Shown here: piece by piece, positions 50,098-56,892 of the stretch
How positions within the stretch are numbered: the stretch's first letter is position 1
How the letters are laid out: the number at the start of each line of letters is the position of its first letter
Source: Escherichia coli
Lineage (GTDB): Bacteria; Pseudomonadota; Gammaproteobacteria; Enterobacterales; Enterobacteriaceae
Length of the DNA stretch: 64,000 bases
Direction: 5' to 3' (one strand)
Assembly (NCBI RefSeq): GCF_011045215.1
Contig: NZ_CP049201.1
Made by a program: the position numbers and the translations under genes
The notes under the pieces: model-generated
Database searches by the model: none
Told to the model about the DNA's origin: nothing
What the model saw: only the letters and a program-made list of their open reading frames with translations

Positions 50098-50530
50098 TAA
50101 ACCCTGCACTTATCTGTTTAGAGCAATTCGGTGTTAGTTACATCAGGCAAACATTAACCATAGCTAATGATTTTTAGCCATATAAACCATTAGTAGCCCT
50201 TGACCTTTCCTGACACTTCCCTTGTTCGCAATAATATTCTGTTTAGTCACGGTTTATAAATAACATGCATAATGAAATCGTCATGTTATTTAGCGACATA
50301 AAATGTTTTTGCAAATACTCTCTTCAACAAGTGCAGCAATAAACTTGTTGTGATTAGGTGTCCTTGTGATTTAAAGATATTATCGTTCTTCGTGAAATGT
50401 AATAACTCTGGGAACTATATTCTCAGGGCAACAACCAATCAAGAATGATTCTTGTTTTATAAGCAATAACAGAATGACTTAATTGTTAACTCTCTTTATT
50501 CAGCTACTTAAATATAAATTTTGGAGAATT

Positions 50531-51094
50531 ATGAAACTCAAACATGTTGGTATGATTGTCGTTTCTGTGTTGGCGATGTCGTCTGCTGCGGTAAGCGCAG
50601 CCGAGGGTGATGAATCAGTAACGACCACTGTTAATGGCGGTGTTATTCATTTTAAAGGTGAAGTGGTAAATGCCGCTTGTGCGATTGATTCCGAATCAAT
50701 GAACCAAACGGTTGAGCTGGGTCAGGTTCGTTCTTCTCGCCTGGCTAAAGCGGGTGACCTCAGCTCCGCCGTTGGCTTCAATATCAAGCTGAATGATTGT
50801 GATACCAATGTTTCCAGTAATGCAGCTGTTGCATTCCTGGGTACTACTGTCACCAGTAATGACGATACGTTAGCGCTGCAGAGTTCAGCGGCAGGCTCTG
50901 CCCAAAATGTCGGTATCCAAATTTTGGACCGTACGGGTGAGGTATTAATACTTGATGGTGCCACTTTTAGCGCTAAAACTGACTTGATTGATGGCACGAA
51001 TATACTGCCGTTCCAGGCTCGTTATATTGCACTCGGGCAGTCCGTAGCTGGTACTGCAAACGCAGATGCGACCTTCAAAGTTCAATATCTATAA
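50531..51094 (+). CDS. Fimbrial major subunit (FimA-like) of a chaperone-usher operon
   Basis: Start at [10 protein letters not shown] after a GGAGA ribosome-binding site; signal peptide, pilin Cys pair, and C-terminal donor-strand motif ending FKVQYL. Confidence 0.8.
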
Positions 51095-51134
51095 TTCAAT
51101 CTTAAGGTGGCTATACGTCATCTGAAATTGAAAC

Positions 51135-51164
51135 AGGGTGTGTGTGGCATGGCTACGCACACCC
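51135..51164 (+). terminator. Intra-operon attenuator hairpin after the major pilin gene
   Basis: GGGTGTGTGTGG…CGCACACCC stem-loop in the spacer between the pilin and chaperone genes. Confidence 0.35.
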
Positions 51165-51445
51165 GAGCAATTCACCAATGTGAATCTCATTATTAATGAG
51201 GAGTGGTTTGTATTTGGAGGGCTATGAAAAATCACATAATATCTAAACTATCAATAAACCACAGTAGTTAAACTTACTGTTATTTAAAATATTTACTTTG
51301 TAGCAAGGTTTTCCTATTAAAAGAGAACCAACATTTATTACAAACGCATTAAGTCTGGAAACCCGGCGACTCGCCAATGTATTAGCAACATTTACCGATT
51401 GTCTGATGTAACGGTTTTCCCGCTTATCCTCTTGACACATGGAGA

Positions 51446-52165
51446 ATGCATCAGATGCAAACTACGCGTACCCCCTACTCTATTTCCTTTATGGCGACAG
51501 TGTTACTTTTATTGCTCTTTGCTTGCCATAGCACCGTTGCCAACGCAGCTGTCGCACTGGGTGCGACGCGGGTAATTTATCCGGCAAACCAGAAACAGGT
51601 TTTATTGCCTGTCACGAATAATGATCCTGCCAGTGTCTATCTCATTCAGTCATGGATAGAAAATGCAGGTGACCAAAAAGACACCCAGTTTGTCATTACC
51701 CCACCGCTTTTTTCCATGCAAGGTAAAAAAGAGAATACGCTGCGGATAATCAACGCCACTAATCATCAGTTACCAGGCGACCGTGAAAGCCTGTTCTGGG
51801 TTAATGTTAAAGCTATTCCTGCTATGGAAAAAGACCAGAAGAATGAGAATACATTACAGCTGGCAATTATTAGCCGCATAAAAATGTTTTATCGCCCCAC
51901 GAACCTGGCAATGGCACCTGAAGAAGCGCCTGCAATGCTTCGGTTTCGTCGCAGCGGTAGCAAACTCACTCTTATTAATCCAACGCCCTACTTCATTACC
52001 GTAACAAATATGAAAGCAGGAAATAGCAATCTCCCAAACACCATGGTGCCGCCAAAAGGTGAAGTATCGGTGGATATCCCGCATGCTGCCACCGGGGATA
52101 TCAGTTTTCAGACGATCAATGATTACGGTGCATTAACTCCGCGTATTAAGGCAACCATGCAGTAA
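51446..52165 (+). CDS. Periplasmic fimbrial chaperone (PapD/FimC-like)
   Basis: 239 aa with a signal peptide; PapD-like sequence. Confidence 0.8.
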   Translation: MHQMQTTRTPYSISFMATVLLLLLFACHSTVANAAVALGATRVIYPANQKQVLLPVTNNDPASVYLIQSWIENAGDQKDTQFVITPPLFSMQGKKENTLRIINATNHQLPGDRESLFWVNVKAIPAMEKDQKNENTLQLAIISRIKMFYRPTNLAMAPEEAPAMLRFRRSGSKLTLINPTPYFITVTNMKAGNSNLPNTMVPPKGEVSVDIPHAATGDISFQTINDYGALTPRIKATMQ

Positions 52166-52206
52166 GCCAGTGACCTAATTAATAATAAACTCAATCGGAA
52201 TTAATA

Positions 52207-54858: not shown

Positions 54859-54871
54859 GGAACAAGAGATT

Positions 54872-55402
54872 ATGAAATACAATAACGTTATTTTCCTCGG
54901 TTTATGTCTGGGGTTAACCACCTATTCTGCTTTATCCGCAGATAGCGTTATTAAAATTAGCGGGCGCGTCCTCGATTATGGCTGCACAGTCTCATCGGAT
55001 TCGCTTAATTTTACCGTAGATCTCCAAAAAAACAGTGCCAGACAATTTCCAACGACCGGTAGCACAAGTCCAGCCGTCCCTTTTCAGATTACGTTAAGTG
55101 AATGCAGCAAAGGGACAACAGGGGTTCGGGTTGCATTTAACGGTATTGAGGATGCAGAAAATAATACTCTGTTGAAACTGGATGAGGGAAGCAATACGGC
55201 CTCCGGTTTAGGTATAGAAATACTGGACGGAAATATGCGTCCGGTGAAACTGAATGACCTTCATGCCGGGATGCAGTGGATCCCACTGGTACCAGAACAG
55301 AACAATATTTTGCCTTACTCCGCTCGTCTGAAGTCAACTCAGAAGTCCGTCAATCCGGGACTGGTGAGGGCTTCGGCAACCTTTACCCTTGAATTTCAAT
55401 AA
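54872..55402 (+). CDS. ydeS: Fimbrial minor subunit (FimF-like)
   Basis: 176 aa with a signal peptide; pilin domain. Confidence 0.8.
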   Translation: MKYNNVIFLGLCLGLTTYSALSADSVIKISGRVLDYGCTVSSDSLNFTVDLQKNSARQFPTTGSTSPAVPFQITLSECSKGTTGVRVAFNGIEDAENNTLLKLDEGSNTASGLGIEILDGNMRPVKLNDLHAGMQWIPLVPEQNNILPYSARLKSTQKSVNPGLVRASATFTLEFQ

Positions 55403-55414
55403 TCAGAGTCAGAT

Positions 55415-55918
55415 ATGAAAAGACTTCACAAGAGGTTCCTGTTAGCTACGTTTTGCGCGTTATTCACAGCAACTCTCCAGGCCGCCGATGTCACTATCAC
55501 TGTTAATGGTCGGGTAGTCGCTAAACCCTGCACTATTCAAACCAAAGAAGCTAACGTTAATCTCGGGGATCTTTATACACGCAATCTGCAACAACCTGGT
55601 TCTGCATCAGGCTGGCACAATATTACTTTGTCATTAACCGATTGTCCGGTTGAAACAAGTGCAGTGACGGCAATCGTGACAGGTTCAACTGACAATACGG
55701 GTTATTACAAAAATGAAGGTACTGCCGAAAATATTCAGATAGAGCTAAGGGATGACCAGGATGCGACGTTAAAAAATGGCGATAGCAAAACGGTTATTGT
55801 TGATGAGATCACTCGTAATGCACAGTTTCCACTTAAGGCAAGAGCTATCACGGTGAATGGAAATGCAAGCCAGGGAACGATCGAGGCGCTAATCAATGTG
55901 ATCTACACCTGGCAATAA
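55415..55918 (+). CDS. ydeR: Fimbrial minor subunit (FimG-like)
   Basis: 167 aa with a signal peptide; pilin domain. Confidence 0.8.
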   Translation: MKRLHKRFLLATFCALFTATLQAADVTITVNGRVVAKPCTIQTKEANVNLGDLYTRNLQQPGSASGWHNITLSLTDCPVETSAVTAIVTGSTDNTGYYKNEGTAENIQIELRDDQDATLKNGDSKTVIVDEITRNAQFPLKARAITVNGNASQGTIEALINVIYTWQ

Positions 55919-55977
55919 CGTCGATTCGATTTTCTTAGCCTTCTTTTTAAATCAATTTTTTAACCTTAGGATATATC

Positions 55978-56892
55978 ATGGGTAAAACAATCAGTATAAA
56001 GGTCCTGTTCGGTATTTATCTTCTATTAATGGCAGGCAAAGTTTTTGCCTTCAGTTGTAATGTCGATGGCGGGTCAAGTATTGGAGCTGGTACAACCTCT
56101 GTTTATGTTAATCTCGACCCTGTAATACAGCCGGGCCAGAATCTGGTTGTAGACTTGTCTCAGCATATAAGTTGCTGGAATGATTACGGCGGCTGGTACG
56201 ACACTGATCATATAAACCTGGTACAAGGCTCAGCTTTCGCAGGCTCCCTACAGTCATATAAAGGATCGCTGTACTGGAATAATGTGACCTACCCCTTCCC
56301 GTTGACAACAAATACCAACGTATTGGATATTGGTGATAAGACACCGATGCCATTACCGTTAAAACTCTATATTACCCCAGTCGGGGCGGCCGGCGGAGTT
56401 GTCATAAACGCGGGGGAAGTTATTGCCCGTATTCATATGTATAAAATTGCAACATTAGGAAGCGGAAATCCGCGTAATTTTACGTGGAATATTATTTCAA
56501 ATAACAGTGTTGTTATGCCAACAGGCGGCTGTACCGTTGATAGTCGTAATGTCAACGTGAATCTCCCGGACTTTCCTGGAAGCGCAGAAATACCCCTTGG
56601 CGTATATTGCTCAAGTGAACAAAAGCTCTCATTTTATCTCTCGGGTGCTACCATTGACAGTGCCAGACAAGTGTTTGCTAACACAGCACCAGATGCAACA
56701 AAAGCAGCGGGAGTGGGTGTCTCTCTGATGCGTAATGGAAAAATACTGGCTACGGGAGAAAATGTCTCCCTGGGGACAGTAAATAAAAGCAAAGTACCTC
56801 TGGGTTTAAGCGCAACCTATGGTCAAACAGGAAACAAAGTTTCAGCCGGAACCGTCCAGTCAGTCATTGGTGTCACTTTTATCTATGAATAA
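55978..56892 (+). CDS. ydeQ: Fimbrial tip adhesin (FimH-like, two-domain)
   Basis: 304 aa; N-terminal lectin-like domain plus C-terminal pilin domain. Confidence 0.8.

What the first reader, a model, noticed from the sequence alone, without database searches (positions are those of the whole stretch)
50483..56892. Complete six-gene chaperone-usher fimbrial operon with an attenuator hairpin after the major pilin
Major subunit, chaperone, full-length 883-aa usher, two minor subunits and a two-domain tip adhesin are all intact and co-directional. K-12 carries only a degenerate version of this locus. A GC-rich stem-loop at 51135-51164, after the pilin gene, probably sets subunit stoichiometry.
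Basis: partly seen in the sequence, partly recalled or inferred. Interest (0 to 1): 0.35.

Follow-up and report, generated by a model that had tools for sequence, protein, structure and literature searches.

The report
Known F9 (Fml/Yde) fimbrial operon
This is an intact copy of the well-studied F9 (Fml/Yde) adhesive-fimbria operon of Escherichia coli, present in about two thirds of complete E. coli genomes, with a real but functionally untested RNA hairpin after its main subunit gene, so it is ordinary.

Summary
Window 50531-56892 (+) carries six intact, co-directional chaperone-usher genes: major pilin, chaperone, 883-aa usher, two minor subunits and a two-domain adhesin. It is the already characterised F9/Fml/Yde operon of E. 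coli, sitting between hipBA/yneL and ydeP. The adhesin's lectin domain is 159/160 identical to crystallised FmlH. The promoter hexamers and start site mapped in strain CFT073 are present.

K-12 lacks window 50353-53631 (3,279 bp), which covers most of the 5' UTR, the pilin, the chaperone and usher codons 1-475. At least 80% of the locus is present in 3,590 of 5,426 complete E. coli genomes.

The true pilin start is ATG 50531, not TTG 50483.

The hairpin at 51136-51164 is real: a 13-bp stem, -22.4 kcal/mol, and the most stable local hairpin in the operon. It is single-copy, and the exact 31-mer occurs in 3,486 of the 3,590 genomes that carry it. It has no U-tract, so it is not a canonical intrinsic terminator. 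It also fails a covariance model of the FimR2-type element that follows fimA in type 1 operons.

A 3' protective or partial-termination role is plausible by analogy with pap and mal, but nobody has tested it. Verdict: already known, low interest.

The parts
50244..50273 (+). f9 promoter: -35 TAGTCA, 18-nt spacer, -10 CATAAT
   Evidence: The promoter scan found it. The same -10 hexamer, the same spacing and a near-identical -35 (TAGTCG) were mapped by 5' RACE in CFT073 (PMC3966885).
50280..50530 (+). 251-nt AT-rich 5' UTR. The start site G at 50280 is inferred by homology. This is the H-NS-bound region in CFT073.
   Evidence: G at 50280 lies exactly 251 nt upstream of ATG 50531, as reported in PMC3966885. 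GC is 33-34%. K-12 keeps only 50280-50352 of it.
50531..51094 (+). F9 major subunit (FmlA; annotated 'FimA' in RefSeq), 187 aa
   Evidence: Pfam Fimbrial, E = 5.9e-31. It is 100% identical to WP_001296758.1 in strains PapM-32-1 and A16 and 70% identical to K-12 FimA.
51136..51164 (+). GC-rich hairpin, 13-bp stem and 3-nt loop, starting 41 nt after the pilin stop codon. No U-tract follows it.
   Evidence: -22.4 kcal/mol, z = -4.5. It is invariant in 9 diverse strains while its flanks vary. The exact 31-mer occurs in 3,486 of 3,590 genomes, one copy each. It is the most stable hairpin in the operon.
51165..51454 (+). 290-nt AT-rich untranslated spacer between the hairpin and the chaperone gene. 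There is no fimI-like gene or remnant.
   Evidence: GC is about 35%. tblastn of the Fim proteins against it finds nothing. The minus-strand 65-aa ORF is not conserved. The spacer is 90-100% identical across E. coli.
51455..52165 (+). Periplasmic chaperone (FimC-like), 236 aa
   Evidence: Pfam PapD_N, E = 8e-40, and PapD_C, E = 4.9e-12. It is 100% identical to WP_001195165.1 and 60% identical to FimC. The conserved subunit-anchoring Arg and Lys (AVALGATR, NVKAIP) can be read in the translation.
52207..54858 (+). Outer-membrane usher (FimD-like), 883 aa, full length
   Evidence: Pfam PapC_N, Usher (1-549 of 549) and PapC_C. It differs by 3-10 substitutions from intact orthologues, all at positions that vary across the family. 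K-12 ydeT corresponds to its last 382 aa.
54872..55402 (+). Minor subunit YdeS (FimF-like), 176 aa
   Evidence: Pfam Fimbrial. 45% identical to FimF. 0-2 differences from orthologues.
55415..55918 (+). Minor subunit YdeR (FimG-like), 167 aa
   Evidence: Pfam Fimbrial. 58% identical to FimG. 1-2 differences from orthologues.
55978..56892 (+). Two-domain tip adhesin YdeQ, also called FmlH or FmlD, 304 aa
   Evidence: Pfam FimH_man-bind over residues 27-171. The lectin domain is 159/160 identical to PDB 6AOW FmlH. Residues 182-304 match the FimH pilin domain. Ligand-contact residues F1, Y46, D53, K132, N140 and R142 (PMC5866590) are all present.

Best explanation
The region is the F9 (Fml/Yde) chaperone-usher fimbrial operon of E. 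coli, in its intact six-gene form. It is a paralogue of the type 1 fim operon without fimI.

How it works, from published work on orthologues:
- Transcription starts about 251 nt upstream of the pilin gene. H-NS silences it at 37 C and the block is relieved at about 20 C.
- The chaperone folds the subunits in the periplasm.
- The usher polymerises them in the order adhesin, two adaptors, then many copies of the major pilin.
- The FmlH tip binds terminal Gal(beta1-3)GalNAc/GlcNAc glycans.

Inferred here: the strong hairpin 41 nt after the pilin stop codon most likely acts as a 3' end-protecting structure, a weak termination or pause structure, or both. RNase E would cut in the AU-rich 290-nt spacer and 3' exonucleases would trim back to the hairpin. 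Some termination, possibly Rho-dependent, may also occur in the untranslated spacer. Either way the pilin message would outnumber the chaperone, usher and tip messages.

My confidence in the operon's identity is about 0.97. My confidence in the hairpin's role in differential expression is about 0.5.
For: Identity:
- Domain content.
- Synteny hipB-hipA-yneL remnant-F9-ydeP, as in K-12, PapM-32-1 and A16.
- Lectin domain 159/160 identical to FmlH structures, with all ligand-contact residues kept.
- The promoter hexamers and the start-site distance equal those mapped in CFT073.
- The gene order is as described in PMC3966885.
- fim paralogy of 45-70% per protein.

Intactness:
- Lengths equal annotated intact orthologues, with no stops.
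- The usher differences fall at family-variable sites.

Hairpin:
- -22.4 kcal/mol, z = -4.5, and the strongest hairpin in the operon.
- The 31-mer is exact in 97% of carrier genomes. The 41-mer, which adds 10 flanking bases, is exact in only 65%.
- It is single-copy.
- In 57 related loci the 80 nt after the pilin gene hold more stable hairpins than control segments: median -13.3 against -10.2 kcal/mol, p = 3e-10. Some distant relatives have textbook terminators there.
- Protective 3' structures for malE and papA are established (PMC5927463).
Against: - No U-tract follows the hairpin on the + strand, and the terminator scan did not call it. Efficient intrinsic termination is therefore unlikely.
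- There are no compensatory changes. The stem simply does not vary, so conservation cannot separate RNA structure from a DNA-level constraint or recent common ancestry.
- No transcript-end, Northern or stability data for this site were found in the F9 papers read.
- One recent transcriptome study saw low F9 expression and no thermoregulation in CFT073 (PMC12890032), so even the published regulation depends on conditions.
- Intact reading frames do not prove that this strain makes the fimbriae.
Confidence: 0.9

Rival explanations
1. The hairpin is the structured 3' end of a small RNA cut from the F9 pilin 3' UTR. This would be the F9 counterpart of FimR2, the RNase E-generated, CsrA-binding sRNA encoded between fimA and fimI.
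For: - It occupies the same place, directly after the paralogous major pilin gene. K-12 annotates FimR2 there, and its biogenesis is described in PMC9723502.
- 45 fim-like loci carry a conserved element at this place.
- A very stable hairpin would protect such a fragment.
Against: - A covariance model built from 46 fimA 3' UTRs scores K-12 FimR2 at 25.5 bits (E = 3e-6). The F9 3' region scores about 6 bits (E about 8) in three F9 loci and is absent from the window hit list at E <= 10.
- There is no GGA anywhere in 51095-51200, whereas both loops of the fim element carry GGA.
- Local alignment to FimR2 or to the family consensus is no better than shuffles, p = 0.25 and 0.72.
Confidence: 0.12
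2. The hairpin is an intrinsic terminator for a transcript on the minus strand, antisense to the spacer, rather than an element of the F9 mRNA.
For: Read on the minus strand, the stem is followed by UGUUUCAAUUUC, which is 7 U in 12 nt. That is more terminator-like than the + strand tail GAGCAAUUCACC (sequence).
Against: - No promoter-like site was found on the minus strand in 51165-51500.
- The only minus-strand ORF there (51243-51440) loses its start or gains a stop in other strains.
- The terminator scan did not call the site on either strand.
- No feature is annotated under it in any RefSeq genome listed.
Confidence: 0.05
3. The operon is intact on paper but phenotypically silent or non-functional in this strain, and the hairpin has no role. 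It would be conserved only because the locus is young and little diverged.
For: - F9 is H-NS-silenced under standard conditions and showed low expression in a recent CFT073 transcriptome.
- The operon is frequently lost or truncated in other lineages, including K-12, UTI89 and all phylogroup A strains.
- No covariation supports the stem.
Against: - All six frames are kept, and the substitutions fall at tolerant sites.
- Orthologous operons from CFT073 and O157 make fimbriae and bind glycans.
- The hairpin is markedly better conserved than its 10 flanking bases and is an energetic outlier.
Confidence: 0.15

Closest known systems
F9 / Fml / Yde fimbriae of E. coli (CFT073 c1931-c1936; O157 Sakai ECs2113 onward; K-12 remnant ydeT-ydeS-ydeR-ydeQ)
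   Same: - Same chromosomal site, between hipBA/yneL and ydeP.
- Same six genes in the same order.
- Same promoter hexamers and 251-nt leader.
- Adhesin lectin domain 159/160 identical to crystallised FmlH.
- 97-99% DNA identity to thousands of genomes.
   Different: Only allelic differences: a few private substitutions (usher I325, E411, S546; adhesin N144, numbered N120 in the mature protein) at variable positions. In this strain the neighbouring hipA is broken by a 730-bp deletion.
Type 1 fimbriae (fimAICDFGH) of E. coli and other Enterobacterales
   Same: - Paralogous gene for gene: pilin 70%, chaperone 60%, usher 58%, FimF-like 45%, FimG-like 58%, FimH-like 47% identity.
- Same assembly pathway.
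- A structured RNA element sits directly after the major pilin gene.
   Different: - There is no fimI and no fimB/fimE invertible switch. A 360-nt non-coding spacer sits where fimI would be.
- The adhesin binds galactosides, not mannose.
- The post-pilin element is one long GGA-free hairpin, not the two short GGA-loop hairpins of FimR2.
3' protective or terminator structures that raise the level of the promoter-proximal message in operons (malE-malF; papA in papBA)
   Same: It is a stable stem-loop immediately downstream of the gene whose product is needed in large excess, followed by an AU-rich stretch suitable for RNase E entry (PMC5927463).
   Different: It has never been tested for F9. It has no U-tract like the papA terminator described in the literature, and it is not a repetitive REP-type element like that of malE-malF, being single-copy.

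Membership tests
Chaperone-usher fimbrial operon (type-1-like, gamma-1 clade) | PapD-like periplasmic chaperone with both domains | tested here: met
   PapD_N, E = 8e-40, and PapD_C, E = 4.9e-12. 60% identical to FimC.
Chaperone-usher fimbrial operon (type-1-like, gamma-1 clade) | Full-length outer-membrane usher with N-terminal domain, barrel and plug, and C-terminal domain | tested here: met
   PapC_N, Usher (profile positions 1-549 of 549) and PapC_C in one 883-aa frame. Same length as annotated intact orthologues.
Chaperone-usher fimbrial operon (type-1-like, gamma-1 clade) | Major and minor pilin subunits plus a two-domain (lectin + pilin) tip adhesin, all co-directional | tested here: met
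   Three Fimbrial-domain proteins and a FimH_man-bind protein. Adhesin residues 182-304 align to the FimH pilin domain. All are on the + strand.
F9 / Fml / Yde operon of E. coli | Chromosomal position between hipBA (with a variable regulator remnant) and ydeP | tested here: met
   Collinear with K-12, PapM-32-1 and A16 at this site. The flanks match the description in PMC3966885.
F9 / Fml / Yde operon of E. coli | Adhesin is FmlH (YdeQ), with its galactoside-binding pocket | tested here: met
   159/160 identity to PDB 6AOW. F1, Y46, D53, K132, N140 and R142 are present.
F9 / Fml / Yde operon of E. coli | Mapped promoter and 251-nt leader bound by H-NS | tested here: met
   The sequence elements are present at the right distances. 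H-NS binding itself cannot be tested here.
F9 / Fml / Yde operon of E. coli | Produces surface fimbriae at low temperature or without H-NS | not testable with these tools
   This needs a Western blot or immunogold electron microscopy of this strain.
Rho-independent (intrinsic) terminator or attenuator | GC-rich stem-loop | tested here: met
   13-bp stem, -22.4 kcal/mol.
Rho-independent (intrinsic) terminator or attenuator | Run of U immediately 3' of the stem | tested here: not met
   The tail is GAGCAAUUCACC. The terminator scan did not report the site.
FimR2-type element of the fimA 3' UTR | Located directly downstream of the major pilin gene of a fim-like operon | tested here: met
   The hairpin starts 41 nt after the pilin stop codon. 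FimR2 starts 10 nt after the fimA stop.
FimR2-type element of the fimA 3' UTR | Two short hairpins or sites, each presenting GGA (the CsrA-type motif) | tested here: not met
   GGA is invariant or nearly invariant in 46 fimA 3' UTRs. There are zero GGA in window 51095-51200.
FimR2-type element of the fimA 3' UTR | Significant score against a covariance model of the family | tested here: not met
   With model R1, K-12 FimR2 scores 25.5 bits and F9 regions about 6 bits (E about 8). The window site is not listed at E <= 10. Rfam 15 holds no FimR2 model.
FimR2-type element of the fimA 3' UTR | RNase E-dependent release of a stable small RNA | not testable with these tools
   This needs Northern blots or RNA-seq.
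Repetitive extragenic palindrome (REP/BIME) | Many dispersed copies per genome | tested here: not met
   There is exactly one place per genome in 3,590 genomes.

The most novel reading that the evidence does not exclude
F9 arose as a fim paralogue. It replaced the widely conserved GGA-bearing, CsrA-binding FimR2 module after the pilin gene with a much stronger GGA-free hairpin and a 290-nt spacer. This would uncouple F9 from CsrA/FimR2 cross-talk. The hairpin would define either a very stable monocistronic pilin mRNA or a new 3' UTR-derived RNA with its own targets.
Probability: 0.15. Interest if true: 0.35.

Novelty: already known. Interest (0 to 1): 0.1.

Why it matters
The locus matters mainly as annotation. 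It tells us this strain can probably make F9/Fml fimbriae. Published work links these to biofilm formation at low temperature, binding to plant xyloglucan, binding to kidney and inflamed-bladder glycans, and colonisation by O157 and uropathogenic strains. FmlH is also a target for drugs and vaccines.

The only open point is a small one. Nobody appears to have tested whether the conserved hairpin after the pilin gene sets the pilin-to-assembly-machinery ratio. It differs in kind from the FimR2 element of the sister type 1 operon.

Tried and rejected
1. Rfam scan of 49500-57500 at E <= 1 gave only a chance AdoCbl-II hit at 0.44. Rfam also has no FimR2 model, so I built one.
2. FimR2 membership was rejected by the covariance model, by the missing GGA motifs and by alignment statistics. 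A shared ACGUCAU heptamer turned out to be no better than chance and is offset by 3 nt.
3. A fimI remnant in the 360-nt spacer: tblastn finds none.
4. A minus-strand 65-aa ORF in the spacer is not conserved.
5. A REP-type repeat was rejected because the element is single-copy.
6. Orthologues outside E. coli for covariation: the scan of one genome per species returned only one F9 locus, a mis-binned E. coli contig. The next best hits are fim-like loci at 67% identity or less. No cross-species test of the stem was therefore possible, and within E. coli the stem does not vary.
7. Inactivating substitutions in the usher or chaperone: none found. The private usher residues lie at family-variable positions.
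8. A terminator after the adhesin gene: there is no convincing structure, z = -0.6.
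Full report
**What is there**

Between 50531 and 56892 the + strand carries six ORFs with no internal stops. Pfam assigns them as follows:
- a fimbrial subunit of 187 aa
- a PapD-type chaperone with both domains
- an 883-aa usher with PapC_N, the complete Usher barrel (profile 1-549 of 549) and PapC_C
- two further fimbrial subunits of 176 and 167 aa
- a 304-aa protein whose N-terminal half is a FimH-type lectin domain

Residues 182-304 of that last protein align to the FimH pilin domain, so it is a two-domain tip adhesin.

One coordinate needs changing. 50483 is only the TTG of the longest mechanical ORF. The RefSeq start in orthologues is ATG 50531.

**Identity**

The locus is the F9 (also called Fml or Yde) fimbrial operon of E. 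coli.
- It lies between hipB-hipA plus an AraC-type remnant (yneL) and ydeP, exactly as in K-12 and in strains PapM-32-1 and A16.
- Wurpel et al. 2014 (PMC3966885) describe the same six-gene order and the same flanks.
- The lectin domain is 159/160 identical to crystallised FmlH (PDB 6AOW and ten further entries with the same chain sequence).
- The one difference (K120N, mature numbering) lies outside the ligand-contact residues F1, Y46, D53, K132, N140 and R142 listed by Kalas et al. 2018 (PMC5866590). All of those are present.
- The promoter scan finds TAGTCA-18 nt-CATAAT at 50244-50273. G 50280 lies 251 nt upstream of ATG 50531. That matches the -35, the -10 and the start site mapped by 5' RACE in CFT073, and it independently fixes the start codon.
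- Protein by protein the operon is a paralogue of type 1 fimbriae: 70, 60, 58, 45, 58 and 47% identity to FimA, C, D, F, G and H. It has no fimI.

All six products have the same length as the RefSeq-annotated intact orthologues. The pilin and chaperone are identical to them. The usher differs at 3-10 positions, the minor subunits at 0-2 and the adhesin at 4-7.

I looked up the usher differences, including the three private to this window (I325, E411, S546), in tblastn alignments to about 77 related ushers. Every one falls at a position that varies in the family, and I325 is the family's majority residue. The chaperone keeps the subunit-anchoring Arg and Lys motifs. I found no inactivating change.

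**Comparison with K-12 and distribution**

K-12 MG1655 lacks window 50353-53631. This is a clean 3,279-bp deletion with one base of junction ambiguity and no insertion sequence. The deletion removes:
- all but the first 73 nt of the leader
- the pilin gene, the hairpin and the spacer
- the chaperone gene
- usher codons 1-475

What remains in K-12 is ydeT (the last 382 aa of the usher), ydeS, ydeR and ydeQ. UTI89 has a different deletion, window 53726-55621, which fuses the usher to ydeR. This agrees with its 'disrupted' status in Wurpel's table.

Of 5,426 complete E. coli genomes, 5,360 have some part of the locus and 3,590 have at least 80% of it in one piece. That is close to the 60% intact reported in 2014.

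A scan of one genome per bacterial species found no F9 chaperone outside E. coli-derived DNA. The next hits are fim-like loci at 67% identity or less. This fits the published view that F9 is specific to E. coli.

**The hairpin**

GGGUGUGUGUGGC-AUG-GCUACGCACACCC at 51136-51164 folds into a 13-bp stem with a 3-nt loop.
- Energy is -22.4 kcal/mol with z = -4.5, and 0 of 200 shuffles fold as well. Five more flanking pairs bring it to -25.9 kcal/mol.
- It is the strongest local hairpin in the whole transcription unit: -23.8 against -16.5 kcal/mol for the runner-up among 166 windows.
- It is single-copy, so it is not a REP-type repeat.
- No listed RefSeq genome annotates anything under it.
- In nine diverse strains the 29 nt are invariant while the surrounding spacer shows substitutions and indels.
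- Species-wide, the 31-mer is exact in 3,486 of 3,590 carrier genomes. The 41-mer, which adds five bases on each side, is exact in only 2,351.

That pattern suggests constraint. But the genomes are not independent, and there is no compensatory change, so the structure is supported by thermodynamics and conservation only.

**What kind of element is it?**

It is not a canonical intrinsic terminator. The 3' tail is GAGCAAUUCACC, and the terminator scan did not report it.

It is also not a member of the FimR2 family. K-12 annotates the 35-nt sRNA FimR2 between fimA and fimI. FimR2 is cut out by RNase E and binds CsrA through a GGA in its loop (Raad et al. 2022, PMC9723502).

I extracted the fimA 3' UTRs of 45 fim-like loci from other Enterobacterales and found a strikingly conserved element: GCA-N-GGA-N-GC, a short linker, then GGCC-AGGA-N-GGCC. 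It shows covariation in the second stem. A covariance model built from these sequences recovers K-12 FimR2 at 25.5 bits (E = 3e-6). The F9 3' regions score about 6 bits (E about 8), and the window site is absent from the hit list at E <= 10 with filters off. There is no GGA anywhere in 51095-51200. Local alignment to FimR2 or to the family consensus is no better than shuffles.

**Most likely role**

Across 57 non-identical related loci, the 80 nt after the major pilin gene hold significantly more stable hairpins than control segments: median -13.3 against -10.2 kcal/mol, Mann-Whitney p = 3e-10. Distant relatives in Proteus and Acinetobacter have textbook terminators there. A structured element after the pilin gene is therefore a class-level feature.

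Established cases are the malE-malF protective hairpin and the RNase-resistant 3' structure of the papA message (Dar and Sorek 2018, PMC5927463). They show how such a structure raises the level of the promoter-proximal message.

For F9 the hairpin is followed by a 290-nt spacer that is about 35% GC and untranslated. I found no gene or gene remnant in it. Such a stretch is a good substrate for RNase E entry and, in principle, for Rho.

I therefore favour a 3' end-protecting or weak termination role that enriches pilin mRNA. I put it at about 0.5 because nothing has been measured. The F9 papers I read do not mention the site.

**Verdict**

This is a correct reading of an ordinary, well-characterised locus. 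It is already known, so interest is low. The only residual novelty is small: the F9 post-pilin hairpin is untested, and it differs in kind from the conserved FimR2-type module of the sister operon.

Noticed in passing
window 48966-49557 (junction at 49055): hipA is inactivated by a 730-bp internal, out-of-frame deletion. The frame reads 30 native codons and stops after 49. hipB (48700-48966) is intact. The 12 best-matching E. coli genomes all carry full-length hipA, so the deletion looks rare or strain-specific.
   Followed up: partly
L013-L088 (fimA 3' UTRs); K-12 L010:3165-3222: The 3' UTR of fimA in 45 type-1-like operons from Klebsiella, Raoultella, Citrobacter, Kluyvera, Enterobacter, Serratia, Erwinia, Pantoea and others carries a conserved pair of short hairpins, each presenting GGA, with covariation in the second stem. 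E. coli FimR2 is the local member. Rfam 15 has no model for it.
   Followed up: partly
L012 (JARKOR010000214.1): A 25-kb contig binned as 'Candidatus Nanosynbacter sp.' encodes an F9 chaperone 100% identical and an F9 pilin 99.5% identical to the window. It is almost certainly mis-binned E. coli DNA.
   Followed up: no
window 43069-48489 (+): The 1,806-aa ECSE_1600-family autotransporter upstream of hipB is an uninterrupted ORF here. Its K-12 counterpart, yneO, is annotated as a pseudogene.
   Followed up: no
window 1 to about 5300: The window begins inside the tail end of a lambdoid prophage, judged by collinearity with strain 100181: end of gpJ, a Lom-family protein, a tail fibre and TfaQ. 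Ordinary chromosomal genes follow: ydfJ remnant, dcp, dgcZ, the mar operon, the lsr operon.
   Followed up: no
window 49843-50097 (+): An 84-aa C-terminal fragment of an AraC-family regulator (yneL-like, annotated 'missing N-terminus' in RefSeq orthologues) lies just upstream of the f9 promoter. About 120 nt before it (49764-49887) diverge from K-12.
   Followed up: no
window 51095-51132 (+): A second, weaker hairpin lies between the pilin stop codon and the main hairpin. It varies among strains, with one G-U to A-U change in UTI89 and a pair-breaking change in O157, so it is probably not constrained.
   Followed up: partly
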